Origin: a virus
Length of the DNA: 64,000 nucleotides
Virus record (IMG/VR): IMGVR_UViG_3300045988_172839
Span: 174,526 to 238,525 of that record
Strand: one strand, 5' to 3'
The notes under the pieces were generated by a model. It was not told where the DNA came from and did no database searches. It saw only the letters and a program-made list of their open reading frames with translations. Position 1 is the stretch's first letter. The number at the start of each line of letters is the position of its first letter. This document shows positions 39,931-63,467 of the stretch, piece after piece. The position numbers were made by a program, and so were the translations under genes.

Positions 39931-41416
39931 GTTTGTTTTACCTCAAGTTTTTCTAAGCAATAATTAGCATTATTTAGTAATTTAAAGCAATTTCTAAGCA
40001 ATTTAAAGCATTTTAAGCAATGTGTAACTACCGTTAGTCTTTTGTTTCTTTTGTAAAGCTTTCTATTCAGTATCTTTAGTAAAGTAAAATCTGCTAGTTT
40101 AACTAACAGTATGTAACCAAATTTTTGAAAGAGGAATTACTAAGCAACCAAATCAATTAACCAACAAATTAACAAAATCTTAGTCTATCATCCAGACCTA
40201 ACGATAGTTGTGCCTTTTGAGGTAATCTCATAAAACCAACAGTGCGACTTCTCAGCCGGACTTAAAAAGCCAACGAAAAAGGACACCCTTAACAGTGGTT
40301 ACGGTAGTCTCTACATTGGCTTTGCCTGTCATCACGACGGTCAAATAAATTAAGTGTCCTGTACGGACTTCAGTAAGCTAAACTTACTTATAAGTCATAA
40401 GCCTTTTACAACTTATGACCTGAAAAAATTTGGAAAGGAAATAGTTCAACGAGAACCACTCGGAGCTAGGAAAATAAACCTAAAAACTAGCTCCTATAAC
40501 CTAAAGACCTTTTACAATCTCTAAGTTTGAAAAGAAAGGGACAACTATGCGTTATCTAAATTGGTGAACCAAAATTCAACCATAAATCACAAATCTTTTA
40601 TAATTGGTGACCTAATAGGTTCAAAGGGTTGTTACAAATGTTAAAAACAGATATAAATGTACCATTCAATTCTTAACGCTCCACAATAACTTGCTTTGCA
40701 AGTTATTGTTTCCGCTAAAGGCATCCTACGATACCCCTAAACCCGCTCTTAAATAAAGATAAGATATAGGTTTACATTTAAAAGTTAAATTTAAGTTTTT
40801 AAACCTCGTCAGATAAATAAGTCTCAAAGACCAAGGACGGTGGGTTTTATTTGTATTCAAATGAATACAAAGATTACTTAATTTATTTAACCTTTAAAAT
40901 ACAATTAAAGAAAAGGTATTAAGATAAACTTAACTACCCTTGTGAAAGAAAAGAATAAACTTTTCCTCACAATGAGCTTTGAACCTTTTACAATTCAAAG
41001 CCCTGAACCAAAATAAATACTAGGAGAACATCAATGAGCAAACAAAGTCACGCATTAAACATTCTAAGAGGAGGGAACCAATCTCCTCTAAAAGTTGCAG
41101 ACCTCTTACAATCTACAACTCAAAAAGAAAAGAAGAAATTCTAAGATTTCTTTTGGTAAGGATGAGAAAACCTTACCTATCACATAACAACTGATTAAAG
41201 TTGCTATATGCACTACTTAATAGGAGAATCAAGTATGGAAAAATTAAGAAGTTTTGTTCAAATATTGAACACCCTACAAAATTGTAGGTATTAGTTGCAA
41301 ACCTTTTACAATCTGCAACCACAACTAAATAATATAAGGAGTGCTTACCTAACGGTAAAGTGAGCTACTTTATTAAAAATAGATCACAGTAAAGTATTTA
41401 TCAACTTTACTTATTT
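39931..41416 (-). ncRNA. 1.5-kb gene-free, hairpin-rich transcribed leader or large ncRNA candidate
   Basis: no ORF of 60 aa or more on either strand; own consensus promoter at 41417-41445; five decaloop hairpins plus many other 7-12 bp stems. Confidence 0.4.
39951..40023. repeat. about 7 phased 10-bp repeats (TTGCTTWAAA on the minus strand) just upstream of the RBS
   Basis: aagcaat / aagcatt cores recur at about 10-bp spacing. Confidence 0.8.
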
Positions 41417-41445
41417 AGTATATCACAAAAAGTAAGGTGTGTCAA
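41417..41445 (-). promoter_or_regulatory. sigma-A-type promoter (TTGACA-N17-TATACT) firing into the gene-free segment
   Basis: TATACT at 41417-41422 and TTGACA at 41440-41445. Confidence 0.6.
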
Positions 41446-41488
41446 GAGTTTTCTTTACTTTTTACTACTTTTTCTATTCTATAGTTTT

Positions 41489-41827
41489 TTAACGAATGCG
41501 TTCCAAACGCAAATGTACGACTACATTATCTTTGTAATCTGTGCGGTCAATGTCACGTTGCAAACGGTAAGAAATGTAATGCTCCGCAATTTGGAGATAT
41601 CCATTTGAGAGGAGTTTGTTTTCTACCAAAGCTTGAACCATAGAAATGGTAATATTCCCAGAGTGAGACTCTTCTAACTCTACTTCAACACTCTTAGCAA
41701 TTTTAGCTAAATTCTGTCTCAAATCATCACTCACTACAAATACAGACTGCGCTGCTTTAATCAAAGCACCGTAAATCTTATTAGCGTCAAAACCCTCTAA
41801 TTGACCGTTACGTTTTACAATTTTCAT
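41489..41827 (-). CDS. stand-alone ATP-cone domain protein
   Basis: MKIVKRNGQLEGFDANKIYGALIKAAQ matches the ATP-cone N-terminus of NrdR/NrdA/NrdD. Confidence 0.6.
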   Translation of the reverse strand: MKIVKRNGQLEGFDANKIYGALIKAAQSVFVVSDDLRQNLAKIAKSVEVELEESHSGNITISMVQALVENKLLSNGYLQIAEHYISYRLQRDIDRTDYKDNVVVHLRLERIR

Positions 41828-41846
41828 GTGTTACCTGCTTTCATTT

Positions 41847-42083
41847 TTAATTTTTATAATCGCGAATAAAACGACCATCTACAAATTGGTCTACTGAACT
41901 AAAGTTGATTAAGTGAGGAGCATCCTCAGAAATGTACTCTATCTTAATCGAATCTGTATCGCTACAATAAACAATGTCTGTAACCATTATTGCTACAGGC
42001 TCAAACTCAACAGTCAACCACTCAGAACCAATACCAATCCAGTTTTTCCAATAGTTTATCTTATCTTCTATAGTTACTTCCAT
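41847..42083 (-). CDS. DUF1653-like small protein
   Basis: C-terminal VDQFVDGRFIRDY, paralogous to 42061..42339. Confidence 0.4.
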   Translation of the reverse strand: MEVTIEDKINYWKNWIGIGSEWLTVEFEPVAIMVTDIVYCSDTDSIKIEYISEDAPHLINFSSVDQFVDGRFIRDYKN

Positions 42084-42339
42084 CTGTTACCTCATCTTTA
42101 AACAAAACCTCTCGCTTAAATCGACCATCTAAAAATTCATCTAATGGACGGAGCCAGTGTAGACGATTAGCATCTCCAAGGCGCTTATAGGATACCGCAA
42201 GAGTTAAATCAGACTCCACTATTACAATGTCTTTAACAGTGTAAAGGTTGTCTGTCTTTAAATGTCGCCAAAGAGAACCTATGGGAACTTCTTTACGTTT
42301 AAGAGATAAATCTTCTTGCACTTCTTCTAGTGATTTCAT
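42061..42339 (-). CDS. DUF1653-like small protein
   Basis: WRHLKTDNLYTV ... HWLRPLDEFLDGRFKRE pattern. Confidence 0.45.
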   Translation of the reverse strand: MKSLEEVQEDLSLKRKEVPIGSLWRHLKTDNLYTVKDIVIVESDLTLAVSYKRLGDANRLHWLRPLDEFLDGRFKREVLFKDEVTDGSNYRR

Positions 42340-43106: not shown

Positions 43107-43140
43107 CGTATAAATTCTTCCTTTCCTTTAAATTTCTTTT

Positions 43141-43169
43141 ATTATAGCACAAAAACGCAAAGAAAACAA
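43141..43169 (-). promoter_or_regulatory. sigma-A-type promoter (TTGTTT-N17-TATAAT, TGn)
   Basis: TATAAT at 43141-43146, with TG at -15/-14. Confidence 0.5.
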
Positions 43170-43185
43170 GTACATGACTTGTTTT
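43164..43185 (-). terminator. intrinsic terminator
   Basis: aaaacaagt/acttgtttt hairpin after the stop of 43196..43942. Confidence 0.55.
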
Positions 43186-43195
43186 CCAGACTATA

Positions 43196-43942: not shown

Positions 43943-43978
43943 TGTATAGCTCCTTTCCTAGTAGTTTTATTGCTAATT

Positions 43979-44007
43979 ATTTTAACACAAAACAGTAGAA
44001 AAATCAA
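43979..44007 (-). promoter_or_regulatory. sigma-A-type promoter (TTGATT-N17-TAAAAT, TGn)
   Basis: hexamers at 44002-44007 and 43979-43984. Confidence 0.5.
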
Positions 44008-44039
44008 CCCTCTACGAGAGTTGACCGTTCCAATCCTAT

Positions 44040-44756: not shown

Positions 44757-44775
44757 TTAGATACCCTTTCTAAAT

Positions 44776-45024: not shown

Positions 45025-45027
45025 ATT

Positions 45028-45171: not shown

Positions 45172-45172
45172 A

Positions 45173-45535: not shown

Positions 45536-45547
45536 ATTATACCTCTT

Positions 45548-46854: not shown

Positions 46855-46857
46855 AAA

Positions 46858-47139: not shown

Positions 47140-47146
47140 CTTTTAA

Positions 47147-50413: not shown

Positions 50414-50629
50414 CTACTCATCTTTTTGCTCAAACCACCCACCGAGAGCCATCTGTATGTTCAGCCAAACTTTATGTGGTAGTTCTTCTTCGCTCATATC
50501 GGCAGAATATGTTCCAGTTTCAAAAGCAGAAATCAACTCAGTTAATTCTCGATACCGCACCTTGTCTGCCATAAAGAGCCTCTGAGCCTTTAGAAACTCA
50601 ATTACTCTCTTGTCTTTCTCACTTAGCAT
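50414..50629 (-). CDS. hypothetical protein
   Basis: 71-aa ORF; AAGAGG RBS. Confidence 0.45.
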   Translation of the reverse strand: MLSEKDKRVIEFLKAQRLFMADKVRYRELTELISAFETGTYSADMSEEELPHKVWLNIQMALGGWFEQKDE

Positions 50630-50663
50630 TTAAAACCTCTTATTTTGCTTTCTATCAAATTTT

Positions 50664-50730
50664 CTATCTGAGAGGTAGAAATTATCGACCTCAACTTTAA
50701 AATCGAAACTGGGGCAATCTGGGACTTCTG
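50664..50730 (-). promoter_or_regulatory. conserved intergenic element, copy 3
   Basis: tatctgagaggtagaaat ... ttaaaatcgaaactggggcaatctgggacttctg. Confidence 0.45.
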
Positions 50731-50762
50731 AGAGTGCTTTGAGAGTTTTATCTCAATTTACG

Positions 50763-50786
50763 AAAAAGAGCAGACAACTATCTGCT
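50763..50786 (-). terminator. intrinsic terminator closing the tnpB-ncRNA unit
   Basis: agcaga-caacta-tctgct hairpin followed by UUUUU on the minus RNA. Confidence 0.6.
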
Positions 50787-50818
50787 TTCTTTCTCTGTCC
50801 AAACTGCGTTTTTGGAAA

Positions 50819-50888
50819 TGAGAACTTGAGGAGTCGAACCTCAAACCTAGACCAACTGCAATTGGAGCAACAGTTCTTCTAGTTCTCA
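50819..50888 (-). other. tRNA-like element (perfect acceptor stem and T-arm, no convincing D-arm)
   Basis: 8-bp terminal stem TGAGAACT/AGTTCTCA; T-arm TGAGG-TTCGACT-CCTCA; possible anticodon-like arm GTTGC-TCCAATT-GCAGT that includes two G.U pairs. Confidence 0.35.
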
Positions 50889-51149
50889 CCTACTTTTCAG
50901 TTCTGCTGAAAAGTAGAAAATATGAAACATCACAAATCTACATCTGGAAAAGGTAGTCTTTAAAGACTAGTAAAAGTCATGTAAGAACCTTTCTAAGTAT
51001 AAATTTGTTCACACGAAATAATCAGTTTCGTGCTATATATTTAACACCTTTTAGAGTGGTAAATATTAAGTTCAATCTAAAGAGTCTCTTTGAACACTCA
51101 TAAAAACCATAAAATTTAAACCAAGCCTAAATTTTTATCATCGGTTAAG

Positions 51150-51328
51150 TGTCGGCACCTTTGGAACCCTATTAAATAACCAACTACCAAAATGAATTCC
51201 CACTAAGGGTTCACCAAGTAGTTTCATTTAGAACAGCATCAAATAAATATGTACCAAAACTATACTCCTTGAAGTCTCGTTGCCGATACACCTTTGGAAC
51301 CATATCAAATAAATATGAACCAAAACTC
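51150..51328. repeat. three dispersed copies of a roughly 45-nt hairpin-forming repeat
   Basis: cacctttggaacc(c/a)tat(t/c)aaataa..accaaaa at 51150-51194 and 51281-51328, with a degenerate copy at 51231-51262. Confidence 0.75.
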
Positions 51329-51571
51329 ATGTATTTAGTTTGAAAATAACCTATCTATTTAACAAAGTTGCAACATGAATGTTATTGTCTACTCAGAAGT
51401 TACTACTGGATACCCTCAATGAAAGCACCTCTTATGTACATTGCTTTTTGAGCCGAGAATAAGCATCTGGTTGCTTAGAAGCAATTCAAACCTCTGTTTG
51501 AATTAACAACCTCCTAACGAAGTCTCCAAACGAACTCCGAAACAGTTTAAGGTCTTATTTAGGACAAGGTT

Positions 51572-53020
51572 TTAATTAAAATATTCTTTACCTACAGATT
51601 TTAGGTCTGTAGTTAGTTGCGACATTGTAAGCTCTTGATTGCGCAAAAACGTATCAAAGTCAGACTTACAACCATCAATGTCTACTGTTACTCCATCTAA
51701 ACCTACATGCTGTAACAGAAAGGCTGAATATAAGTCACGTTGAACTAAGTCATCACCAATCAGTTTTGAACGTGTACCTAATGAAACTTTGTTGTACTCT
51801 TCAGTTAAGTGGTTTAACTGGGAAGCCTTTACTTCTCTTGTATTTGCAAGAATAAATGTTTTACCTTGGTACATGGTTTTATAACGAATCTGTTCAATCA
51901 ACATAGACGGTGCTTTGTGTAAAAGAGTTTTACCAAAGCGTTTCTTAGACTGGTATTTACCTGTCTTTTCACTTACTTTCGTTTCCTTTGTACGAGCTTG
52001 TAAACCTTTAAAGGACATTTGCTCTACTACGAAAGTTGAACCCATACGCACAACTCTGTTAGCTAAAGTTTTATGAGCCAACTTACGTTGCTCCGCTGCT
52101 TTACGATGTAACTCACTAAGTTCTGCTTTTGTCTTCAGATACTCATTAGAATCTACCCAAGTTTGGCGCACACCCTTTTTAATAGTACCATCTGCATTGT
52201 ACTTGTGAGGATTGTTAGCCCTACGTTGACGATCAAGTTTGCGACTTAAACGTATAAGTTCTTGTTGATCTAAGTCAACTCCCCTTGCTAGTTCCTCTAA
52301 CTCAGTCTGATAATAAGAGGATACCGCAATCGTAGATGTACCAATATCAATTCCCACAGAACCTTCAAGTTCGGAAGTGTATTTAGTTGGGAGTGTTCCC
52401 TCAAAAATAGACTGTACATAGTAGTTCCACTCCCCAAACTCAAATCTGCGAACTAAACGGTTGTACTTCAAAGTATTACGTAAAACTTCTTCTTCAAAAA
52501 CATCGTTTTCGTTACGAATGGTACATGAAACTTTCTTTTTGCGAGTTGAGATAGTGAAAACATTACCTTTTATACTAACTCCTGTAGTTCCGCTACTCTC
52601 AAAGGAAGTCAAATTACCTCTAAGATTCACTTTCTCAGCACCTTTAGCAAACATCACTTTACTAAATGCACCCCATGCTCTAAAACCTAACATATAAGCA
52701 ACCTTAGAAGGAATATAATCACTGTAATTACGAGCATTACGGTAGTCATTTGCAAACTTACCTGCTGTGAACTTACCTACTAAGTCATACTTAGTACCAA
52801 GATCTTTCAAAATTGCATTACGCTCTTTTCCTTTAGGGAACTTATAGGCTTTCTTATAAAGGGGATCTTTCTTCATCTTAGAGTAACGTTTTAACAACGC
52901 AATTAAAGTCTTCTTGTAAATATCGTCTGCCATACGGAAACGCTTTGCAAACTGCTCTTTGTGAGACTTGTTTGCATTTAATTTACGAGTATAGACAAAT
53001 AGTTGTTTACCTTTCTCCAT
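51572..53020 (-). CDS. tnpB: TnpB-like RuvC-fold protein (IS200/IS605 OrfB family) lacking the zinc-ribbon cysteines
   Basis: GIDIGTSTIAVS (RuvC-I D), FVVEQMSFKGLQ (RuvC-II E), LVQRDLYSAFLL (RuvC-III D); the usual TSQxCxxCG position reads ASQLNHLTEEYN; strong AAAGGAGG RBS. Confidence 0.75.
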   Translation of the reverse strand: MEKGKQLFVYTRKLNANKSHKEQFAKRFRMADDIYKKTLIALLKRYSKMKKDPLYKKAYKFPKGKERNAILKDLGTKYDLVGKFTAGKFANDYRNARNYSDYIPSKVAYMLGFRAWGAFSKVMFAKGAEKVNLRGNLTSFESSGTTGVSIKGNVFTISTRKKKVSCTIRNENDVFEEEVLRNTLKYNRLVRRFEFGEWNYYVQSIFEGTLPTKYTSELEGSVGIDIGTSTIAVSSYYQTELEELARGVDLDQQELIRLSRKLDRQRRANNPHKYNADGTIKKGVRQTWVDSNEYLKTKAELSELHRKAAEQRKLAHKTLANRVVRMGSTFVVEQMSFKGLQARTKETKVSEKTGKYQSKKRFGKTLLHKAPSMLIEQIRYKTMYQGKTFILANTREVKASQLNHLTEEYNKVSLGTRSKLIGDDLVQRDLYSAFLLQHVGLDGVTVDIDGCKSDFDTFLRNQELTMSQLTTDLKSVGKEYFN

Positions 53021-55942: not shown

Positions 55943-56013
55943 CTAAGGTAGCTGGATTCGAACCAACGATGAAGGAGTCAAAGTCCTTTGCCTTACCTCT
56001 TGGCTATACCTTA
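55943..56013 (-). tRNA. tRNA-Gln (anticodon TTG)
   Basis: hand-folded cloverleaf: acceptor TAAGGTA/TACCTTA, D GCC/GGC, anticodon arm AAGGA-CTTTGAC-TCCTT, T-arm GTTGG-TTCGAAT-CCAGC; no encoded CCA. Confidence 0.85.
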
Positions 56014-56208
56014 ACAATAAAAGATGTAGCTGATTGGTACAGCGCTCTTCCCAATCACTTGCGCCAAACACGTTCGTATCCAGACTACATCGTAACAACA
56101 TATCTTCCTAACAACGAGGATGGTATGTTGTCACCAAGTATACTTGGGGAAGCAAGAACCCAATACCACTGTTTCTCACCAGTGAACTAGTTTCTCTCCA
56201 TAATCCCA

Positions 56209-56281
56209 TGCAGATTAACGGACTCGAACCTCTGACCCTCTGATTACAAATCAGATGTTCTACCAACTGAACTAAATCTGC
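56209..56281 (-). tRNA. tRNA-Thr (anticodon TGT)
   Basis: acceptor GCAGATT/AATCTGC, D GTTC/GAAC, anticodon arm TCTGA-TTTGTAA-TCAGA, T-loop TTCGAGT; one mismatch in the T-stem. Confidence 0.8.
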
Positions 56282-57168
56282 TCACTAAGTTTGTGGTCAA
56301 GCACTTAGAAAACTTGTCAAAGGACTCCAACCCTTCGAAGAAAGCACCCACGGTTAACCAATCTCATTAGGTTCCGAGTATCTTGGAATTATGTGCTTTT
56401 TATTTTAGGATTCCCACCTATAGACCTTCTACCAAAGCCTATCCCCGTCGAGTATTGAGCATACCCAGTCAACTTTGTTACTGCTTGGTTTTCACTAGTA
56501 GTTGACCTAGAGTTTCTTTTTTGGGTTCTAAAGAAACTTAAACCTCAAGTTTGTGTAGCTGAGAGGTTCGTGCGCACGTCCTCTCACTTACCCCAATCAC
56601 TAAGCGCGACTGAACTACATCATTTAAAAGAGAAAATAACTTTTCTCAAATGCTCGATACCGAAGTGTTAGAGCAAACACCTCAGCAATTTATTTTCTTG
56701 GATTTTTACTTAAGGGGTCAAGGGGTGGAAAAGACAAACCGTTGCCAAAACTGCGCCTTGCGTCCACCTAGTTTTAATGTACACTCAACTAGGATTTACC
56801 GCCTGAGTTTATCGACTTCATCGGATTATTGGTCACGTATAAAAGGTATTTACTTATAGCTTCAATTTTGTAAATGTGTTCTCCCCTAAAAGTTATTTTG
56901 ACAAAGCAGGGAACAAGCAGTTAGAAGTTCTTAACACGTTTTCCATAAATGACTATGTTAGACAGGGAGCCATGTTATATCAGATTTACAAACAAAATAC
57001 AAGTAAATTCGGGTTTAAACCCTCACCCGCGGTGTACACCGAAAACCCTAATCAGAAGCTCGTCTAAGATACCGTGAGGTAGCACCTTAAAATCAACGCT
57101 CGTTTAACGTCCAAAAGACGAAACAGTTTAGGTGTCTTATTTAGGACAATAATTACTAAGTAACAAAT
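56282..57168 (-). ncRNA. about 0.9-kb gene-free, comparatively GC-rich structured segment between the methyltransferase gene and tRNA-Thr (large ncRNA candidate)
   Basis: only plus-strand shadow ORFs; stems such as CCTAGTT/AACTAGG, GGTGGA/TCCACC and CGC-AAG-GCG; starts with the 30-nt box shared with the tnpB 3' flank. Confidence 0.4.
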
Positions 57169-57972
57169 TTAGTTCTTCTGAAAAACACAAACCATTTTCG
57201 TATCAAAAGGAACTAAGTCTAGCTCAAAGTAATTCTGTAAATAAGCTAAATAACTCTGATCCTTATATCTATGAATACCTTGCAACTGCAAACAATCTTT
57301 CCAAGGATACGCAATCCACTTTATGAAGGCATTTGTAACATTATATTGCTCTTTTGACTCTCGACTCAAAGACTTCAAACCCCAAACTGTATGAAAAATA
57401 ATCTCATAAGCATTTTTAACAGTAGTTACAATAGAACCGTCTTCTTTTGTCTCAACAGTATCAATAATCGAGTTTTTCTGAAGTTCTTTAATCCAAGTAT
57501 GTATTTCTATCTCACTTTGTTTTGAAACAGGTCGGAGCGTAAATGTCTCAGATACCAAATCTGGGTTAGCCCAATCTCGAATAACTAGAGAACCACCTGT
57601 TTTTAAACTATTTACAATCATGGATATGGTTTCTGTACGTTCTTGACGAGTTAAATAACTCATAATTTCGTGGAAAACACTAGAGAGATAAATTATATCA
57701 AATTGAAGTTCCCCTTTAAGTAACTCTTGTTTAGTTACCACATTTACACCCATACGAGATAAAGTAGTTTGCACAGTCGGAGAAATATCATAAGAATAGT
57801 AATTAGTACCTGTAGAAACTACATTAGCTATAAACTCATAAGAAATACCAGAACCAAAATCCAAAAGTGTAACCCCCTCTCCAAGAAATGGCTCAACTAC
57901 CTTAAATTTAGACTCAGCAGTTTGGTTCATTCTTTGAATATAGCTATTATTATCACTTAAATAGTTATCCAT
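57169..57972 (-). CDS. class I SAM-dependent methyltransferase
   Basis: VTLLDFGSGISYEF (motif I), FDIIYLSSVFHEI, LKTGGSLVIRDW. Confidence 0.65.
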   Translation of the reverse strand: MDNYLSDNNSYIQRMNQTAESKFKVVEPFLGEGVTLLDFGSGISYEFIANVVSTGTNYYSYDISPTVQTTLSRMGVNVVTKQELLKGELQFDIIYLSSVFHEIMSYLTRQERTETISMIVNSLKTGGSLVIRDWANPDLVSETFTLRPVSKQSEIEIHTWIKELQKNSIIDTVETKEDGSIVTTVKNAYEIIFHTVWGLKSLSRESKEQYNVTNAFIKWIAYPWKDCLQLQGIHRYKDQSYLAYLQNYFELDLVPFDTKMVCVFQKN

Positions 57973-58216
57973 TAAATACTCTCTCAGTTTTTCTACATGT
58001 TTAGAAAAATATCAATTATTAGACTTCCATTTTTGAAGAAATCTGATAACTTGTTCTACTTCTGACTTAGATAAATCGTAAGTACCACAGTCATACGAGC
58101 CTTTAGTTTGACAAGTAATAGATACCCCATCATTATATCCTTGTATGGTTTAATCTCCATCAGCATTCTCAAAATCTAATTGACTCATAATTACACATTT
58201 CCTTTTCTCATAGTTA

Positions 58217-58287
58217 TGTACCTTGTAGGAATCGAATCTACGATCCTCAGCTTATGAGACTGAAGATCTACCAACTGCTACCATTCC
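58217..58287 (-). pseudogene. tRNA-like element with CAT anticodon loop but no matching acceptor strands
   Basis: good anticodon arm TCAGT-CTCATAA-GCTGA and T-loop TTCGATT, but 5' GGAATGG cannot pair with 3' AAGGTAC and the D-stem is defective. Confidence 0.35.
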
Positions 58288-58303
58288 ACTTTAATTTAAC
58301 AAA

Positions 58304-58374
58304 CACAGGCAGTAGGAATTGAACCCACACTGACGATTTTGGAGACCGTAGTTCTACCTTTAAACTATGCCTGT
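58304..58374 (-). tRNA. tRNA-Trp (anticodon CCA)
   Basis: acceptor ACAGGCA/TGCCTGT, anticodon arm ACGGT-CTCCAAA-ATCGT, T-arm GTGGG-TTCAATT-CCTAC. Confidence 0.9.
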
Positions 58375-58378
58375 ATAA

Positions 58379-58459
58379 TGGAAAGAGAGGGATTCGAACC
58401 CCCGAACCCGAAGGAGCGGATTTACAGTCCGCCGCGTTTAGCCTCTTCGCTATCTTTCC
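58379..58459 (-). tRNA. tRNA-Tyr (anticodon GTA), long variable arm
   Basis: acceptor GGAAAGA/TCTTTCC, anticodon arm GCGGA-CTGTAAA-TCCGC, T-arm GGGGG-TTCGAAT-CCCTC. Confidence 0.9.
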
Positions 58460-58470
58460 GAATATTAAAA

Positions 58471-58833
58471 CTAAGTTTGACCATACAATAGACTATTACT
58501 AAACTCAAGCACAACCTTGAAAACTGTATCTATGTTTAGAGTGAAAAGTAAGATAAGTAGTCCAAATAAGATCTTTGAGACTAGTGAAGGTAGAATATCT
58601 TCAATCGAAAGACCTAATAATTCTAGTTTAATCTCAATTAGATATTTGAAAATTATCATCCCACCAAATGCAATGGCAACCGCACCATCAGTATTAGGTT
58701 GAGGAAAACCAAAGTAAATATGTAATTTATACAAAATCACCCAAGCTAGTAAACCTAAAGCAGAAGAAAGGATACCACCTGCAAGGTAAAGTAACGCTTC
58801 GTTTCGTAAATCTTTAAACCAACTACCTTCCAT
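58471..58833 (-). CDS. small membrane protein
   Basis: 120 aa with 3 hydrophobic helices; its RBS (AAGAGG) lies inside the anticodon-loop remnant of the upstream tRNA 5' half. Confidence 0.5.
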   Translation of the reverse strand: MEGSWFKDLRNEALLYLAGGILSSALGLLAWVILYKLHIYFGFPQPNTDGAVAIAFGGMIIFKYLIEIKLELLGLSIEDILPSLVSKILFGLLILLFTLNIDTVFKVVLEFSNSLLYGQT

Positions 58834-58880
58834 ATTCCAACCTCTTCAAACCAATGCTCTACCAACTGAGCTACCTTTCC
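58834..58880 (-). pseudogene. tRNA 5' half (Phe-GAA-like) with no 3' half
   Basis: GGAAAGG-TA-GCTC-AGTTGGTA-GAGC-A-TTGGT-TTGAAGA, then runs straight into the ATG of 58471..58833. Confidence 0.5.
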
Positions 58881-58930
58881 TAAAATGTGGAGACTCCTTA
58901 GAGGAGAGTTCGCACATATAAACCAACAAA

Positions 58931-59003
58931 CGGTCTCGAAGGGAATTGAACCCTCGATCTCTGCCGTGACAAGGCAGCGCGATAACCACTACGCTACGAG
59001 ACC
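58931..59003 (-). tRNA. tRNA-Asp (anticodon GTC)
   Basis: acceptor GGTCTCG/CGAGACC, anticodon arm CTGCC-TTGTCAC-GGCAG, T-loop TTCAATT. Confidence 0.9.
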
Positions 59004-59007
59004 TAAT

Positions 59008-59089
59008 GTGATAGGAAGGTCTTGAACTGACTTCCCTAGAAGTAACGGCACCTCTCCTTACTGCATCAACCTACAAATGCTTCTATCAC
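59008..59089 (-). other. atypical 82-nt tRNA-like cloverleaf with extended, bulged arms
   Basis: terminal stem GTGATAG/CTATCAC, D-like GCAT/ATGC, two roughly 7-bp bulged arms with 7-nt loops AGAGGTG and AGTTCAA. Confidence 0.3.
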
Positions 59090-59100
59090 TTAACAAAAAA

Positions 59101-59385
59101 TTAAAAGCCACCAAGAACTAAACATTCTTCCAAAGGTCTAAGAACGAGGTTTTGAAATTTAAGAAAATCCGGATACCCTAAACTATCTCTATAATGTAGC
59201 AACTGTCTTGAGAAGTAAAACTCTGTACCGTTGTAGTAAACATTACCAAGATATTCTCCAGTATGTCGATTACGCACCATAACTGCTTTAGTACCTACTA
59301 CAAAATATAGGTCTTTAACTCTAGTTCTATGTTGGATAATCAAGCGTCTAAGACTTACTGGTAATAGTTTTCTGACTCGTTTCAT
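59101..59385 (-). CDS. hypothetical protein
   Basis: 94-aa basic ORF; AAAGGAGAAG RBS. Confidence 0.5.
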   Translation of the reverse strand: MKRVRKLLPVSLRRLIIQHRTRVKDLYFVVGTKAVMVRNRHTGEYLGNVYYNGTEFYFSRQLLHYRDSLGYPDFLKFQNLVLRPLEECLVLGGF

Positions 59386-59900
59386 TCTACTTCTCCTTTC
59401 TTTTTGATAAATAATATGACTTCGGAGGGAGTCCCACCCACGACACCTGCGCTTGGTGTATTGTAAACATCAAAGCCACGTGTGTTTTTAATTCTGATAA
59501 CTAACTAGACCTTTGTCCAAGGCTTGCAACACACAAAACACCGTAAATCCACTAATGCATCTATACCCCTACACAAGAGGTAAGACCATTAGCGCAACTT
59601 CCAACTCGTGCACAAGTTGGAGGGCTGGCTGTCGCCCTTGTCGTTGCCGACAATACACCATACAGGATTCGAACCCGTGTTACTGCCGTGAAAAGGCAGT
59701 GTCTTAACCCCTTGACCAATGGTGCTTAAGGAGGGCAGGTCTCTGTTTTCCAACAGACGGATTTGGATGCACTGATCGACTGTGTACTTTTATTTGGGCA
59801 GCCCACGTTTCCCTTGTAGACAAATATGTGCAGATGTTTGGTAGTCGTTACCAAACGCTCAGTCAAATCTATCTACTGCAAAAATTAACTTCACGAATTT
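59386..59900 (-). ncRNA. promoter-driven roughly 0.5-kb non-coding unit with tRNA-Glu embedded between structured flanks
   Basis: promoter at 59901-59929; flanks contain GNRA-capped helices (TCTGTT-GGAA-AACAGA, GTCG-GCAA-CGAC) and CCAACT/AGTTGG. Confidence 0.4.
59654..59725 (-). tRNA. tRNA-Glu (anticodon TTC)
   Basis: acceptor GCACCAT/ATGGTGT (one G.U), anticodon arm CTGCC-TTTTCAC-GGCAG, T-arm ACGGG-TTCGAAT-CCTGT. Confidence 0.85.
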
Positions 59901-59929
59901 ATTATAACACAAAGAGTCAAGTTTGTCAA
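59901..59929 (-). promoter_or_regulatory. sigma-A-type promoter (TTGACA-N17-TATAAT, TGn)
   Basis: hexamers at 59924-59929 and 59901-59906. Confidence 0.65.
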
Positions 59930-59985
59930 TAAGTTTTAATTAAAAGTTCACTATTTACTAAATTAGTTAGAAACTTACCGAAAGC

Positions 59986-60348
59986 TTAGAGTGCTGTGTG
60001 ATACTCTTTTAATAGCCTAAGTTCCCTTTCATATTCACGTTGAAGTTTTAAACGCTCCGATTTAGTTTCTTCGGTCATAGGGATTTCAAAAAGCATAGAA
60101 GCATAATTGTGAGTAAACAACTCATAGGTATCATTGAAGTCTACAACAACAAACCAAAGAAACTTAACCTCAGTAAGAGTTGTTTTAGTGTTTAAAGTTA
60201 GTTGAATCCCACAGTTTAGAATCTCATTTAAAGGGTTTGAAGCAAGTTGCTCAAAAGTGAATCCCATATGTTCATTTTCATTGCTCTGAATAGTCTTATA
60301 ATCCCCAAACAAAGGACTGAGAGAAGAAGTATCTAACAAAGAAATCAC
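59986..60348 (-). CDS. hypothetical protein
   Basis: 120-aa ORF; start uncertain. Confidence 0.45.
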   Translation of the reverse strand: MISLLDTSSLSPLFGDYKTIQSNENEHMGFTFEQLASNPLNEILNCGIQLTLNTKTTLTEVKFLWFVVVDFNDTYELFTHNYASMLFEIPMTEETKSERLKLQREYERELRLLKEYHTAL

Positions 60349-60577
60349 ATCCTACTTAGACAAATACCCATATTTCTCAAAAATCTTTAATAACCTAGTG
60401 TAGCTCTTAGGGAGTGAAAAGTAGCGAACTGTATCACTATATAAAAAAGTAGAACCCTCACTCAACCTAAGTAACTTCATAACAAAACTCCTTAAAAATC
60501 TTTATTTAATATAGTATACCATATAAGTCTAAGAATTACAAACATAAAAAAAAGTAAGTAAATCAACTAAGGCTTAC

Positions 60578-60823
60578 TTACAATACTTCACTTGAAGGTT
60601 CATATTCTTTTAAAAGTTCATCTAAATCATAGTTTGGAATATCTAACTGATCAGACTTATTTCTTAAAATAATCTTCCCATCTTCAAAAATAAACTCTAC
60701 CTCATTACCTTCAGACAAATTTAAGTTTTCTAAAACTGTAGTTGGTAGAAGGATACCCTTACTGTTTCCCCATTTAGTAACCTTTTTAGTTCCTAAACTG
60801 CATCGATAATGTTCTTTAACCAT
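60578..60823 (-). CDS. AbrB/MazE/SpoVT-family DNA-binding (antitoxin-like) protein
   Basis: VTKWGNSKGILLPTTVLENLNLSEGNEVEF is the swapped-hairpin barrel signature. Confidence 0.65.
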   Translation of the reverse strand: MVKEHYRCSLGTKKVTKWGNSKGILLPTTVLENLNLSEGNEVEFIFEDGKIILRNKSDQLDIPNYDLDELLKEYEPSSEVL

Positions 60824-60837
60824 CTAAGAATCACCCC

Positions 60838-61188
60838 CTAATCATCAATTAAATCTAAGTATAAAGAGCTGAGAAGATTTTCCAAACTATCAACTGCTGC
60901 TTTATTGCAATCAACACGTAAATACTCATCATCTGGGAAAATATCTAACCAATCTAAACTTGTAGGGTAAAAACCTGTCTCTTCATAAATCTGTGCAGAA
61001 ACTTCATCTAAAGTTTCCGCTAGTTTGTCTACATCAGTAGGTTTAAAATCACCTAAACCACAAATTGCACCGTCATCTTCCCAATAATAAGGATTGATAC
61101 AAATATGGACACTACAAGGATATTCATTTAAAGCTTCTTTTGCTAAAGTTTTAGTTATAAAAGACATTTCAATTTCCTTATCTTTCAT
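60838..61188 (-). CDS. acidic hypothetical protein
   Basis: 116 aa, strongly Asp/Glu-rich. Confidence 0.5.
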   Translation of the reverse strand: MKDKEIEMSFITKTLAKEALNEYPCSVHICINPYYWEDDGAICGLGDFKPTDVDKLAETLDEVSAQIYEETGFYPTSLDWLDIFPDDEYLRVDCNKAAVDSLENLLSSLYLDLIDD

Positions 61189-61195
61189 TAGTTTA

Positions 61196-61562
61196 TGGAG
61201 CCGGTGGGAGTCGAACCCACGTCCAAACGACCTTTCCAGCTAACCTTACTGCGCACTGCTACGTTTTAACATTCTACTTTTAGGAAACGCACAAAGCTAA
61301 AAGTTATATCTCTCTTTAACAAACTAAGTTGAGAAATCTTAGTTGCGAGTACCGATGTTTATAGCAACTAAAAGATACCGGTACTTATCTTAGTCGCTCG
61401 TCTATTCGACTTTTTACTTGTGTTGAGTGACAACTAAGCCGAAGCTTAGGCAACCATTTCAACTGGTGCATTGTTATTTGCAGTTATGTTTAGGTTGGTG
61501 ATTACGTCACCACTCGGTACGAGGTTAAAAGGTACAATCGCCTGTCGAATCCAAGCGACCCC
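61196..61562 (-). ncRNA. ssrA: tmRNA (ssrA)
   Basis: 5' GGGGTCGCTTGGATTCGACAGG and 3' GTGGGTTCGACTCCCACCGGCTCCA form a tRNA-Ala-like acceptor with a G3.U pair and a T-arm; internal ORF ..GCA AAT AAC AAT GCA CCA GTT GAA ATG GTT GCC TAA followed by a UUCG-capped helix; about 367 nt. Confidence 0.85.
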
Positions 61563-61578
61563 TCATTAAGATAAATCT

Positions 61579-61607
61579 ATTATATCAGAAAGATGGTTAA
61601 ATGTCAA
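61579..61607 (-). promoter_or_regulatory. sigma-A-type promoter (TTGACA-N17-TATAAT, TGn) for the tmRNA
   Basis: hexamers at 61602-61607 and 61579-61584, about 17 nt upstream of the mature 5' end. Confidence 0.7.
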
Positions 61608-61874
61608 GGGTTATTTGTGCTATTCTCAGCTTTTGTAGGTGTTTTTGCGAATAAAAGTAAACCAAACAAACCTGCGAACCACAGGAACATCAAGGATACT
61701 CCTCTCAATTATAACTTACTATTGAGTTCATATTGGTTAAATAGAGTTGAAACATGAGAAACTACATCAATCGGAAAACTATACTCAATAGTAATAAACA
61801 AGGTAAATGCGAAGAGGAAACATAAAACTATGTAAACATTCAAAAACTTAATTTTCATTCAAGACCTCTATTTA

Positions 61875-62162
61875 TTAAGCTATCGTCCGTTGAGACAAGA
61901 ACGAAAGAAGTTCTTCTGGGGTTTGGCATCTCATCAACCGTTTAAATTCTAAACTATCTGCAATTATAGACTCAAACTCCATGTTTTGAGTTGGATCATA
62001 ATAACCTATAGTCAAACAATTACCCTCATCTACTCTTATCTGAGCAGACACTCCCCACTCACTATCGAAATCTTCTAAAACTACTTCTAAGTGTCTTTGT
62101 AACTCACTTAAACTAGACTCTAATTCGTTATGTAGTTTCATCATTTTGTTGTAGGTTAGCAT
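61875..62162 (-). CDS. hypothetical protein
   Basis: ATG at 62162 preceded by GAGGGAAGGG; the track ORF extends to 62207. Confidence 0.45.
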   Translation of the reverse strand: MLTYNKMMKLHNELESSLSELQRHLEVVLEDFDSEWGVSAQIRVDEGNCLTIGYYDPTQNMEFESIIADSLEFKRLMRCQTPEELLSFLSQRTIA

Positions 62163-62341
62163 TTTGTGGATACCCTTCCCTCTTAGATATAAAAAGTTTA
62201 CCAGCAAGAAGTTATACCAGTAAACGGGAACATTATGTGATTTATATAGCGGTTCATAACCTTGAGGAGCTTAACTCTAGAAAATAAACACCTCAACAGC
62301 ATTCTTGACTTCTGTTCAATCGCACCGCTACGAAAATCTTA

Positions 62342-62429
62342 CGGAGAATAAGGGATTCGAACCCTTGCGCCAGTTACCCGACCTAACGATTTAGCAAACC
62401 GTCCTCTTCAACCTCTTGAGTAATTCTCC
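62342..62429 (-). tRNA. tRNA-Ser (anticodon GCT)
   Basis: acceptor GGAGAAT/ATTCTCC, anticodon arm ACGGT-TTGCTAA-ATCGT, long variable arm, T-arm AAGGG-TTCGAAT-CCCTT. Confidence 0.9.
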
Positions 62430-62925
62430 AAACTAAAGGGAACCTCTTTGAAAAGAGGATACCCTTACGGTTTGTTTTCCGAAGTAAACCTTACTTCTAC
62501 ACTTCACGTCGCGAACTAGAGTGTAACGAGAGTTCTTTAGAACCCTAACGGTTGTACGTTAGGGGATTTTGTCAGTCTCTAAATGACGATGTTTAGGAAC
62601 CAATATAGGTTCTATAAGTTGCTAACCTTTTACAGTTAACAACCTTCCCGAAAGGAGGATTTAATGAAAGCTAACCTCTCTCCCATTCTCATGAGGAGAG
62701 GAATGATGTAAAAACCTTTAACAGTTCTTACACCAAATAAATTAGAAAAAGAAGGTCTAACTAAACGCTAGAACCAGCCTAGCGAGGAACCAATCAAAAC
62801 CAACTAGACTAGGAGGTAGCGACCTTTGAAAGCCGATACCCCAGTAAACAAAATGCTCTATAACTCTGCTGCACATTTTAAAACATTAGGAGTTATTTTC
62901 TTGAATTGAAATTACTTCAATTCAA
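62430..62925 (-). ncRNA. structured 0.5-kb spacer between the two tRNA-Ser genes (two decaloop hairpins)
   Basis: no ORF; hairpins at 62618-62643 and 62708-62731, plus a 10-bp stem at 62900-62924. Confidence 0.35.
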
Positions 62926-63016
62926 CGGAAGATGTGGGATTCGAACCCACGCGCCGTTTTACCGACCTGACGGTTTTCAAGACCGTTCCCTTATAGCCAG
63001 ACTTGGGTAATCTTCC
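62926..63016 (-). tRNA. tRNA-Ser (anticodon TGA)
   Basis: acceptor GGAAGAT/ATCTTCC, anticodon arm ACGGT-CTTGAAA-ACCGT, long variable arm, T-arm GTGGG-TTCGAAT-CCCAC. Confidence 0.9.
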
Positions 63017-63467
63017 ATGAGGGAAGGTTTCAACCCGTGAAGATTGAAACCCCACCCTAAATTCTAAGAGGATTCATGGAAAATGTGAAAACCATGAATT
63101 TTCCCACACAACAAAGTGTGGTATAACGCAAAGACCTTTGAAAATCATTGCGCTTGAATAAAATTAAGAGGTATTTTGAAAGCAAGTCCTGATCACGAAA
63201 CTCACTTATCAACCAAATTCACTTTAGTAGTAGTTTAGGACATGACTTCACAAAATCCTTGAAAGACATTGTTACTGACTCTAAAATTTGCAACTACTAA
63301 AGCTACGACTCAGCAACCTTCTTCAGATTGCCAAGCCTAAAGGATACAAATCTCACCTACCGAGAAAATACTTACAAATAAACTCAGTAGGCTACGACTC
63401 AACAACCTTATTCAAATTGTTGAGCCTAAAAGGTAACACATACAAAAAATATACATTACATTTGGCA
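63017..63467 (-). ncRNA. structured 0.45-kb spacer with a duplicated roughly 50-nt hairpin module
   Basis: gctacgactca(g/a)caacctt..ttca(g/a)attg.. repeated at 63302-63350 and 63391-63440, with compensatory stem changes. Confidence 0.35.

What the first reader, a model, noticed from the sequence alone, without database searches (positions are those of the whole stretch)
40394..63424. Family of hairpins with conserved decaloop (U/C)UGUAAAAGG and covarying stems, confined to the gene-free segments
Seven hairpins share the loop on the minus-strand RNA: 40394-40419, 40498-40527, 40976-41001, 41093-41120, 41294-41319, 62618-62643 and 62708-62731. The loop reads TTGTAAAAGG, with variants TTGTAAGAGG, CTGTAAAAGG and CTGTTAAAGG. 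The 7-10 bp stems have unrelated sequences: GTCATAAG/CTTATGAC, GCTTTGAA/TTCAAAGC, GTTGCAGA/TTTGCAAC, GTTGTTAA/TTAGCAAC and others. Several stems contain G.U pairs that exist only if the minus strand is the folded strand; on the plus strand they would be C.A. Two further copies (63309-63335 and 63398-63424) have 11-nt loops, TCTGAAGAAGG and TTTGAATAAGG. Their stems (CTTGGCAA/TTGCTGAG versus CTCAACAA/TTGTTGAG) differ by compensatory changes. Each hairpin is followed within a few nucleotides by a second, non-conserved hairpin and is usually preceded by a U/C-rich tract. A conserved loop on variable stems is the signature of a protein- or RNA-recognition element, such as a coat-protein-type operator, a kissing loop or a processing signal. 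I do not recognise it as a described motif.
Basis: seen in the sequence. Interest (0 to 1): 0.75.

Follow-up and report, generated by a model that had tools for sequence, protein, structure and literature searches.

The report
Phage hairpin family mimicking tRNA top-halves
A family of large phages from mouth bacteria makes many copies of a small RNA hairpin with a fixed 12-pair stem, a conserved tip and the same 3' junction as the phages' own tRNA precursors; it matches no catalogued RNA family and may be cut out by the cell's tRNA-trimming enzymes.

Summary
All nine hairpins are at the stated places on the minus (gene-sense) strand. A covariance model adds one diverged copy and one or two degenerate ones. 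All lie in gene-free DNA. Relatives and other phage lineages give 117 distinct copies. Stems covary fully: 99.8% of cells are paired and 10 of 12 pairs show double changes. The tip is conserved. G.U outnumbers A.C 190 to 17, so the gene-sense strand folds.

The "decaloop" is better read as two closing pairs (Y-G, U.G) on a hexaloop G-U-M-A-A-A. That gives a helix of exactly 12 pairs that never extends further. Rfam has no match.

The copies lie in an array behind a conserved strong promoter, between phage tRNA genes, and just after two genes of a Ligilactobacillus salivarius phage-plasmid.

The two bases after the helix are AU/GU/UU, never CCA. This matches the discriminator-U74 junction of about 90 CCA-less tRNAs from these phages. 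A control hairpin lacks it.

My best reading (confidence 0.35) is a mimic of the tRNA acceptor/T-arm minihelix, released by RNase Z. The partner of the conserved tip is unknown. Rivals are a protein sponge, a boxB/nut-like site and an RNase III-type ruler site.

The parts
41292..41321 (-). HP1 copy 1: TGGTTGCAGA-TTGTAAAAGG-TTTGCAACTA, followed by ATAC
   Evidence: model R1 48.0 bits
41092..41121 (-). HP1 copy 2: GAGTTGTAGA-TTGTAAGAGG-TCTGCAACTT, followed by TTAG
   Evidence: 45.1 bits
40974..41003 (-). HP1 copy 3: GGGCTTTGAA-TTGTAAAAGG-TTCAAAGCTC, followed by ATTG
   Evidence: 46.4 bits
40579..40616 (-). Degenerate HP1 copy (loop TTATAAAAGA, one stem mismatch)
   Evidence: 16.7 bits, E 0.06; orthologous degenerate copies in relatives
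40498..40527 (-). HP1 copy 4: AACTTAGAGA-TTGTAAAAGG-TCTTTAGGTT, followed by ATAG
   Evidence: 46.6 bits
40392..40421 (-). HP1 copy 5: AGGTCATAAG-TTGTAAAAGG-CTTATGACTT, followed by ATAA
   Evidence: 47.3 bits
63396..63426 (-). HP1 variant with 13 pairs and pentaloop GAAUA (GGCTCAACAA-TTTGAATAAGG-TTGTTGAGTC, then GTAG), 40 nt after tRNA-Pro
   Evidence: 20.4 bits
63307..63337 (-). HP1 variant with pentaloop GAAGA (GGCTTGGCAA-TCTGAAGAAGG-TTGCTGAGTC, then GTAG)
   Evidence: 12.8 bits
63120..63157 (-). Its ortholog in L029 reads TTGTAAAAGG; its stem ends 7 nt before tRNA-Ser.
   Evidence: 22.4 bits, E 0.0015
62704..62735 (-). HP1 copy: TGGTGTAAGAA-CTGTTAAAGG-TTTTTACATCA
   Evidence: 40.3 bits
62616..62645 (-). 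HP1 copy: AGGTTGTTAA-CTGTAAAAGG-TTAGCAACTT, followed by ATAG
   Evidence: 47.7 bits
41273..41288 (-). HP2 (variable second hairpin) of copy 1. Other HP2s, read from the folds, lie at about 41067-41089, 40940-40972, 40462-40494, 40372-40388, 63355-63392, 62675-62701 and 62597-62612.
   Evidence: MFE folds; HP2 starts 0-3 nt after HP1 in 107 of 117 copies
41417..41445 (-). Sigma-70-type promoter TTGACA-17-TATACT with TG extension, pointing into the hairpin array
   Evidence: 11 of 12 matches; the same kind of promoter sits at the same place in L014, L018 and L020
63468..63542 (-). tRNA-Pro, CCA-less, junction A73-U74. Together with tRNA-Ser 62926-63016 and tRNA-Ser 62342-62429 it brackets the second group of hairpins.
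40180..40345 (-). Approximate extent of a conserved structured leader between the array and the 458-aa gene (TTTGACYGTCG..GGCAAAGCCAATG..CGTTGGCTTTTT..CGGCTGAGAAGTCGCA). It is context only, and its link to the hairpins is unknown.
   Evidence: conserved across W, L001, L005, L014, L017, L018 and L020

Best explanation
HP1 is a small structured RNA element transcribed from the gene-sense strand. It imitates the 'top half' of a tRNA precursor, that is, the acceptor stem stacked on the T stem.

Shown:
- A helix of exactly 12 pairs: 10 covarying pairs plus conserved Y-G and U.G pairs.
- A conserved compact tip: a G.A-type pair over U-M-A-A.
- A G-poor, U-rich 5' leader.
- A 3' junction of one unpaired A/G/U (almost never C) followed by a near-invariant U, with no CCA. 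This is the junction found after every tRNA of these phages.
- Placement in tRNA clusters, in a promoter-driven array, and after genes.

Inferred:
- The host tRNA 3' endonuclease RNase Z cuts between that base and the U, measuring from the tip. In Streptococcaceae RNase Z matures all tRNAs, because all are CCA-less.
- RNase P or another nuclease trims the U-rich leader.
- Each copy is released as a minihelix of about 31 nt, possibly CCA-tailed. The following hairpin or tRNA starts a new fragment.
- Because only the hairpin is conserved and it is present in many copies, the released minihelix is the product. Its conserved tip then binds an unidentified partner.
For: Structure and strand:
- 117 distinct copies; 99.8% of cells paired; 10 of 12 pairs show compensatory changes.
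- G.U 190 against A.C 17 when copies are selected in a strand-neutral way.
- All 112 model hits in 17 relatives lie on the gene-sense strand inside one leader region.

Fixed length:
- Pairing beyond the 10th stem pair equals chance expectation (48 observed, 48.1 expected).
- MFE folds add the Y-G and U.G pairs, giving 12 pairs. That equals acceptor 7 plus T stem 5.

Junction:
- The two bases after HP1 are AU 66, GU 23 and UU 22 of 117, and U32 is present in 112 of 117.
- After the phages' own tRNAs, N73-N74 is AU 60, GU 23 and UU 7 of 90. U74 is present in 87 of 87, and none has CCA.
- Control: only 28 of 110 second hairpins have U at the equivalent place.

Context:
- Copies are interspersed and co-oriented with tRNA genes in the tRNA cluster of the window's own family and in contigs that share none of 11 tested window proteins within the short stretches held.
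- The stem of one copy ends 7 nt before a tRNA.
- A conserved strong promoter lies upstream of the array.

Literature:
- RNase Z of an oral Streptococcus cuts just after the discriminator (A73|U74). All Streptococcaceae tRNAs are CCA-less (PMC8549757).
- B. subtilis RNase Z does the same, and CCA inhibits it (PMC1874595, PMC7479834).
- B. subtilis trnSL-Ala1 has U74-A75 followed by a hairpin (PMC1874595). This resembles HP1-D-U-A-HP2.

Tip:
- A minority of tips read UUCAAC, close to the T-loop UUCAAUU. Positions 3 and 8 covary as G/A versus U/C.
Against: - No cleavage data exist; the RNase Z step is inference from sequence parallels.
- The usual tip (GUMAAA, 6 nt) is not a T-loop (UUCRANY, 7 nt).
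- The apical pairs have the opposite purine/pyrimidine polarity to a T stem.
- The Rfam tRNA model does not see the hairpins.
- B. subtilis RNase Z is inhibited by long 5' extensions (PMC1874595), so an unproven earlier 5' cut is needed.
- A tRNA-enzyme mimic does not need such a strongly conserved tip, nor a G.U at the second pair (89 of 117 have G there). Both point to an extra, unknown partner.
- tRNAs do not need these hairpins for their own release.
Confidence: 0.35

Rival explanations
1. Multivalent sponge or decoy without tRNA-type processing. The conserved tip is the binding site of a phage or host protein (or of a nuclease that targets RNA loops). The many copies in abundant untranslated transcripts titrate or scaffold that protein. 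One sub-version is anticodon-loop mimicry: the first seven tip bases read Y-U-G-U-N-R-A, the loop profile of Tyr/Asp/His/Asn tRNAs.
For: - Only the hairpin is conserved. Spacers and second hairpins are not.
- Copy number varies from 4 to 13 between relatives, with recent tandem duplications.
- A strong promoter lies upstream.
- The tip profile is Y1 U2 G3 U4 N5 R6 A7. CTGTAAA equals the phage's own tRNA-Tyr anticodon loop and CTGTTAA that of tRNA-Asn.
Against: - It does not explain the exact 12-pair length or the tRNA-like not-C/U junction.
- G3 is not invariant: U in 22 and A in 8 of 117.
- The extra invariant AGG, and the predicted pairing of U2 and Y1, do not fit a 7-nt anticodon loop.
- No candidate binding protein was found.
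Confidence: 0.2
2. A nut/boxB-like antitermination site. A GNRA-like loop on a hairpin, preceded by a CU-rich boxA-like tract, loads a factor onto RNA polymerase. Long untranslated tRNA and leader transcripts are then read through terminators.
For: - Tip positions fit G-(U)-N-R-(N)-A.
- Two copies have true GNRNA pentaloops (GAAGA, GAAUA). From memory, CUGAAGAAGG equals the core of lambda nutL boxB.
- CU-rich words (TTCTTT, TCCTTT, CTCCTT) peak 10-25 nt upstream.
- The array sits between a strong promoter and a conserved hairpin-plus-U-run element ahead of the gene.
- Terminator-like sites are in excess in the tRNA region (9 against 2.2 expected).
- Copies lie after genes in pMP1046B.
Against: - There are 5-13 tandem sites with nothing between them, unlike any known nut arrangement.
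- Stems are 12 pairs of fixed length, against about 5 for boxB.
- The CU tract has no fixed sequence or spacing (1-18 nt).
- No N-like protein was identified.
Confidence: 0.12
3. A ruler-type double-strand RNase site. This would work like yeast Rnt1p hairpins or phage T7/SP82 RNase III sites: the tip is recognised, the helix is cut a fixed distance away near the conserved G.U, and a 3' stabilising hairpin is left behind.
For: - Conserved tip on variable stems of fixed length.
- Conserved G2.U29 near the base.
- Intergenic positions after genes in pMP1046B.
Against: - 12 pairs is short for a bacterial RNase III substrate (from memory).
- No RNase III or dsRBD domain was found among the window proteins.
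- It does not explain the tRNA-like junction.
Confidence: 0.08
4. Self-assembling RNA architecture. The GNRA-like tip docks into the conserved base of the helix (G.U/G-C pairs) of another copy one helical turn away. This is the geometry of tectoRNA. It would condense the array in the manner of the cage-forming phage RNAs ROOL and GOLLD, which also lie next to phage tRNAs.
For: - Both ends of the helix are conserved and its length is fixed.
- The tip is GNRA-like.
- The copies are associated with tRNA clusters.
Against: This is purely geometric reasoning. No receptor motif was recognised. Single copies after genes in pMP1046B do not suit an assembly.
Confidence: 0.05
5. A single-stranded DNA element (priming or origin signal, recombination site, hairpin promoter) or a selfish repeat, not an RNA.
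For: G.T wobble also stabilises DNA hairpins, so the strand asymmetry alone does not prove RNA. TnpB-type insertion sequences are present in these genomes.
Against: - The copies are co-oriented with transcription and sit only in transcribed gene-free RNA regions behind promoters and among tRNAs.
- Stems are not conserved, unlike REP or IS200/IS605 ends.
- The junction matches an RNA-processing junction.
Confidence: 0.05

Closest known systems
CCA-less pre-tRNA 3' junction and acceptor/T-arm minihelix substrates of RNase Z; tRNA-like punctuation such as mascRNA (from memory)
   Same: A 12-pair stacked helix. An unpaired A/G/U 'discriminator' followed by U. No CCA. A U-rich, G-poor leader. A hairpin or tRNA immediately downstream. 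Location inside tRNA operons (PMC8549757, PMC1874595).
   Different: The tip is a 6-nt GUMAAA loop on Y-G/U.G pairs, not a 7-nt T-loop on G53-C61. There is no D arm, anticodon arm or cloverleaf. A G.U is conserved at the second pair. Processing is unproven.
Lambda-type boxB hairpins of nut sites (from memory)
   Same: A phage RNA hairpin whose GNRA-like loop is conserved while its stem varies. It is preceded by a pyrimidine-rich tract and placed in untranslated leaders. Two copies carry GAAGA/GAAUA pentaloops.
   Different: The helix is 12-13 pairs of fixed length rather than about 5. There are many tandem copies. No boxA consensus and no N-like protein were found. The 3' junction is tRNA-like.
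Rnt1p (yeast RNase III) AGNN-tetraloop hairpins (from memory)
   Same: The logic of a conserved tip on arbitrary stems that act as a ruler for cleavage at a fixed distance.
   Different: Different organism, different loop, shorter distance. No RNase III evidence here.
GOLLD and ROOL, large RNAs of Firmicute phages found next to tRNA genes (from memory)
   Same: Phage non-coding RNA of unknown function embedded in tRNA clusters of Lactobacillales-type phages.
   Different: Those are single large ornate RNAs with Rfam models, and neither was found here. This is a 30-nt unit repeated many times.
CsrB/RsmZ-type sponge RNAs and ToxI-type antitoxin repeat arrays (from memory)
   Same: Many hairpin units in one abundant transcript, with a copy number that evolves quickly.
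   Different: The loop has no GGA motif and the two G are predicted to be paired. The units are not near-identical direct repeats. No toxin gene was recognised downstream.

Membership tests
RNase Z substrate of the CCA-less pre-tRNA / minihelix type | Stacked helix of 12 pairs (acceptor 7 + T stem 5) ending at the cleavage junction | tested here: met
   10 covarying pairs plus Y-G and U.G pairs. No extension beyond chance: 48 observed against 48.1 expected.
RNase Z substrate of the CCA-less pre-tRNA / minihelix type | Unpaired discriminator followed by U74 and no CCA | tested here: met
   HP1: AU 66, GU 23, UU 22 of 117. Phage tRNAs: AU 60, GU 23, UU 7 of 90. U74 is present in 87 of 87 tRNAs. 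Control hairpins have U in 28 of 110.
RNase Z substrate of the CCA-less pre-tRNA / minihelix type | T-loop (7 nt, UUCRANY) closed by G53-C61 | tested here: not met
   The tip is GUMAAA (6 nt) closed by U.G. Only the minority U3 variants (UUCAAC, UUAAUC) resemble a T-loop.
RNase Z substrate of the CCA-less pre-tRNA / minihelix type | Actual cleavage after the discriminator by RNase Z | not testable with these tools
   This needs end mapping or an in vitro assay. The enzymology is taken from PMC8549757, PMC1874595 and PMC7479834.
tRNA (Rfam RF00005) | Cloverleaf scoring above the gathering threshold | tested here: not met
   No tRNA hit on any hairpin, even at E up to 5; ARAGORN is silent.
Lambda-type nut site (boxA + boxB) | Short hairpin with a GNRNA pentaloop | tested here: inconclusive
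   Two of 11 window copies have GAAGA/GAAUA. The rest have G-U-N-R-N-A, which is compatible with a GNRA-like fold (G3/A8 covaries with U3/C8). Stems are 12-13 pairs.
Lambda-type nut site (boxA + boxB) | boxA consensus at a fixed short distance 5' of boxB, one site per transcription unit | tested here: not met
   There are only CU-rich words at variable distance, 1-18 nt. There are 5-13 tandem copies.
Anticodon stem-loop mimic (substrate of tRNA-guanine transglycosylase or of a colicin E5-type nuclease) | 7-nt loop with U33-G34-U35 on a 5-pair stem | tested here: not met
   The loop region is 10 nt with an invariant extra AGG, and U2 and Y1 are predicted to be paired. G3 is present in only 86 of 117 copies.
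CsrA-binding sponge RNA | GGA in the hairpin loop | tested here: not met
   The base after GG is a variable stem base (T 106, C 6, G 3, A 2 of 117), and the two G pair with Y and U.
Type III toxin-antitoxin RNA array (ToxI-like) | Near-identical direct repeats of about 35 nt upstream of an endoribonuclease toxin gene | tested here: not met
   Stems differ between copies. The tandem-repeat finder reports no array over the hairpins. The downstream 458-aa protein has no family or fold match.
Any Rfam 15 family | Covariance-model match | tested here: not met
   Gathering-threshold scan of the whole window and E up to 5 scans of both regions.

The most novel reading that the evidence does not exclude
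These hairpins are a new class of tiny 'minihelix genes'. They hijack the host tRNA maturation enzymes (RNase P, RNase Z, perhaps the CCA-adding enzyme) for their own biogenesis. They are made in dozens of copies per infection. Their conserved tip then acts on a tRNA-directed process. For example, it might decoy a tRNA-targeting host defence nuclease or toxin, or throttle RNase Z itself, on which every tRNA of a streptococcal host depends.
Probability: 0.15. Interest if true: 0.85.

Novelty: new variant of a known kind. Interest (0 to 1): 0.65.

Why it matters
Phage tRNA clusters are known to carry unexplained non-coding RNAs. This is a compact, very well supported new motif of that kind. There are 117 distinct copies. 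Conservation spans relatives whose neighbouring protein is only 54% identical. The motif is also present in a cultured strain, Ligilactobacillus salivarius JCM1046 with plasmid pMP1046B. If the tRNA-top-half reading is right, phages can make small RNAs in bulk without terminators or dedicated enzymes, by borrowing tRNA maturation. It would also give a concrete handle, the conserved tip, for finding what these RNAs bind. The model makes sharp and cheap predictions: ends at one phosphodiester bond, dependence on U32 and dependence on stem length.

Tried and rejected
- Rfam, at the gathering threshold and at E up to 5: no family.
- Phage GenBank records by megablast, blastn and tblastn: no relative of the window.
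- Small ORFs on the plus strand with AGGAG ribosome sites (the reverse complement of the CU tracts): read by eye from the sequences, one 36-codon ORF in the window stops after 3 codons in L001 and L002, so rejected.
- A trans kissing partner CCUUUUAC: 3 gene-sense sites, not enriched.
- A pseudoknot between the loop's AAAGG and the upstream CCUUU: spacing is variable, and there is no covariation when the loop changes to ATAGG, ACAGG or AACGG.
- Each module as its own promoter unit: -10-like words have no consistent spacing and there is no -35.
- The downstream 458-aa protein as the partner: no Pfam or PHROG family, a poor AlphaFold model (pLDDT 58.6) and no fold match.
- A tRNA-guanine transglycosylase, RNase III or N-like gene in the window: none among 80 ORFs scanned.
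- Bacterial genomes: a strict pattern scan gave only chance hits, many of them inside a repeated GGGIVKGSL-type coding stretch that I take, from memory, to be RadA.
- Full-text literature search for the loop word: nothing relevant.
- Stem extension that would put the G.U at position 3 (alanine-tRNA identity): not supported.

Full report
**What the window is.** All genes and 10 tRNA/tmRNA genes lie on the minus strand. No GenBank phage record matches it by DNA or protein. Close and distant relatives are IMG/VR and assembly contigs of 230-285 kb, many with Human Microbiome Project-style record names (7000000xxx, HMPC, SRS). A PcsB/CHAP protein and uniformly CCA-less tRNAs point to a host in the Lactobacillales.

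**Checking the observation.**
- With G.U allowed, each stem has 10 pairs directly flanking the 10- or 11-nt 'loop'.
- The loop word occurs 9 times against 2.4 expected.
- A covariance model (R1) built from 45 distinct copies scores the seven decaloop copies at 40-48 bits.
- R1 also finds an extra diverged copy (63120-63157), the two 11-nt-loop copies, and a degenerate copy (40579-40616).
- All hits are on the minus strand and in gene-free DNA. Nothing comparable lies on the plus strand or inside genes.

**Conservation elsewhere.**
- In 17 related contigs, all 112 model hits are on the gene-sense strand. All lie in the one gene-free leader upstream of the ortholog of the 458-aa gene, with 4-10 copies per genome and with different stems.
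- Relatives whose 458-aa protein is only 54-61% identical keep the array, with 7 and 13 copies.
- The tRNA clusters of relatives also carry copies between tRNA genes.
- A pattern scan of viral contigs followed by a hairpin filter found true copies in further contigs. In the short stretches held, those contigs show no similarity to 11 tested window proteins. Most copies again sit in tRNA clusters.
- One such contig is the 129-kb plasmid pMP1046B of Ligilactobacillus salivarius JCM1046, a phage-plasmid with tape-measure, holin and polymerase genes. The whole replicon has just two strong copies. Each lies 8-10 nt after the stop codon of a gene.
- A strict scan of one genome per bacterial species gave only chance hits in coding sequence.

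**Anatomy from 117 distinct copies.**
- The 18 nt upstream are G-poor and U-rich. CU-rich words lie at variable distance.
- The stem is R1-Y30, G2.U29 (G in 89 of 117), G3-C28, then free covarying pairs, then R9-Y22 and A10-U21.
- The 'decaloop' reads Y U G U M A A A G G. MFE folds pair Y1 with G10 and U2 with G9.
- Position 3 covaries with position 8: G/A in 85 copies, U/C in 11, U/A in 9, A/A in 7, and C8 occurs only with U3. These two bases therefore interact, leaving a 4-nt tip U-M-A-A.
- The helix has exactly 12 standard pairs. Pairing beyond it is at chance level (48 observed, 48.1 expected).
- The two 11-nt-loop copies form 13 pairs and a GNRNA pentaloop.
- After the helix come D31 (A 67, G 24, U 23, C 3), U32 (112 of 117), A/U33 and G34.
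- A second, entirely variable hairpin (5-16 pairs) begins 0-3 nt after the first in 107 of 117 copies. In one copy a tRNA follows in its place, 7 nt after the stem.

**Which strand folds, and as what.**
- On the 45-copy alignment, 99.8% of cells are paired and 10 of 12 pairs have changes on both sides. No shuffle of 500 reaches this, and slid controls collapse.
- When copies are selected only by Watson-Crick pairs, which treats both strands equally, the non-Watson-Crick positions are G.U 190 times and A.C 17 times.
- So the gene-sense strand is the folded one.
- A near-consensus promoter (TTGACA, 17 nt, TG-extended -10) lies upstream of the array in the window and in L014, L018 and L020.
- RNA is therefore the natural reading, though single-stranded DNA of that polarity is not formally excluded.

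**What it is not.**
- No Rfam family matches.
- Plus-strand mini-ORFs are not conserved.
- No complementary partner sequence is enriched.
- The upstream CCUUU tract does not covary with the loop.
- There is no GGA motif of the CsrA type.
- The units are not near-identical repeats like ToxI.
- The downstream 458-aa protein has no recognisable family or fold.
- None of 80 window ORFs scanned shows an RNase III, transglycosylase or obvious RNA-binding domain.

**The most informative parallel.**
- All nine tRNAs of the window lack an encoded CCA and have U immediately after the discriminator.
- Across about 90 distinct tRNAs of these phage lineages, the junction N73-N74 is AU 60, GU 23 and UU 7. 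U74 is present in 87 of 87 and there is never a C73.
- The junction after HP1 has almost the same distribution: AU 66, GU 23, UU 22 of 117.
- The second hairpins serve as a control, and only 28 of 110 have U at that place.
- A helix of 12 pairs is the length of the acceptor stem stacked on the T stem.
- The G-poor, U/A-rich leader also resembles the tRNA leaders in composition, though not position by position.
- In an oral Streptococcus all tRNAs are CCA-less, and RNase Z cuts immediately after the discriminator, before a U (PMC8549757).
- In B. subtilis, RNase Z does the same. It is blocked by CCA and is hampered by long 5' extensions, so RNase P is thought to act first (PMC1874595, PMC7479834).
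- B. subtilis trnSL-Ala1 has U74-A75 followed by a hairpin (PMC1874595). This is the layout seen in HP1-D-U-A-HP2.

**Proposed mechanism.**
- Shown: HP1 is a gene-sense RNA hairpin with tRNA-top-half dimensions and a tRNA-precursor 3' junction. It is co-transcribed with tRNAs or from its own strong promoter.
- Inferred: RNase Z cuts between D31 and U32. A 5' cut by RNase P or another nuclease in the U-rich leader frees a minihelix of about 31 nt, which may receive CCA.
- Inferred: because nothing between the hairpins is conserved and copy number is high and fluid, the minihelix is the product, and its tip contacts an unknown partner.
- Not explained: why the tip is GUMAAA rather than a T-loop, and why G2.U29 is conserved.
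- I put this at 0.35.

**Rivals.**
- A plain sponge or decoy (0.20) fits the multiplicity and the conserved tip. It includes the observation that the first seven tip bases have the profile of a GUN anticodon loop and equal the phage tRNA-Tyr and tRNA-Asn loops. It does not explain the length or the junction, and G3 varies.
- A boxB/nut-like site (0.12) fits the GNRA-like tip, the CU tract and the promoter-array-terminator-like layout. It does not fit 5-13 tandem copies or 12-pair stems.
- An RNase III-type ruler site (0.08), a self-docking RNA assembly (0.05) and a DNA-level element (0.05) remain possible.

**Novelty and interest.** The motif is not catalogued, is strongly supported and recurs in several phage groups and in one cultured strain. 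In kind it resembles known things: tRNA-like processing mimics and loop-recognised phage hairpins. In form it is new: arrays of tRNA-top-half-like minihelices with their own conserved tip. I rate it a new variant of a known kind, with interest 0.65.

Noticed in passing
window 63555-63700, minus strand; conserved in L029 8620-8770: Two adjacent tRNA-like bodies score below threshold on the Rfam tRNA model (21.8 and 25.7 bits, model positions 6-65), and ARAGORN misses them. Their acceptor strands look swapped. The 5' strand of the first (GAGGATA) pairs with the 3' strand of the second (TATCCTC), while the inner strands (TACGACGAC / GTCGTTGTA) form a local hairpin. The MFE fold shows this nested arrangement (z = -2.7).
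   Followed up: partly
window about 40180-40345, minus strand: A conserved structured leader lies between the hairpin array and the 458-aa gene. It is kept even in relatives at 54% protein identity. It includes a stem AAAGCCAAUG...CGUUGGCUUUUU around a variable insert, and the block CGGCTGAGAAGTCGCA. In L002 a TnpB-carrying insertion of about 1.5 kb has landed inside it. It may be an attenuator or riboswitch-like element.
   Followed up: partly
window 39954-40021: A 10-nt tandem repeat (AAATTGCTTA on the gene strand, about 6.8 copies) lies just upstream of the start of the 458-aa gene. L014 has a different repeat (CTAAGAAAAMT, about 8 copies) at the same place.
   Followed up: partly
window tRNAs (55943-63542) and about 90 tRNAs in L022-L141: Every phage tRNA examined is CCA-less and is followed by U74. 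The discriminator is A, G or U and never C.
   Followed up: yes
window 61193-61562, with promoter 61579-61607, minus strand: A phage-encoded tmRNA (108 bits) with tag ANNNAPVEMVA sits behind a perfect 12-of-12 sigma-70 promoter. The tag ends in MVA, MAA or VAA in relatives.
   Followed up: no
window 51572-53020 and the gene-free stretch 50574-51572: A 482-aa TnpB/IS605-OrfB-like ORF is present. The gene-free stretch downstream holds about three copies of a 60-70-nt repeat ('...ttttggt.catatttatttgat..ggttccaaaggtg...') around 51180-51340.
   Followed up: no
L056 8726-8801; L140 89-175; L141 124-210: ARAGORN calls tRNAs with four-base anticodons (tttt, gctt) in the tRNA clusters of other hairpin-bearing phage contigs. 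They may be frameshift-suppressor-type tRNAs or mis-calls.
   Followed up: no
L169 25978-26016 (pMP1046B record about 115978-116016), minus strand: Model R1 weakly hits (18 bits) the 3' part of a tRNA-Tyr-like gene. There the T arm extends into a continuous 12-pair hairpin (ACAUGAUAAAGG-UUCGACU-CCUUUGUCAUGU) followed by UUAG. This is a minihelix with a true T-loop and the same junction.
   Followed up: partly
L167 13994-14031 and 15831-15868 (NZ_CP007648.1, L. salivarius JCM1046 plasmid pMP1046B): The only two strong copies in this complete, cultured phage-plasmid sit 8-10 nt after the stop codons of a MazG-like gene and a pgpA-like gene. Each is followed by AUAG and a short GGUAG...CUACC hairpin. 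This makes a ready experimental system.
   Followed up: yes
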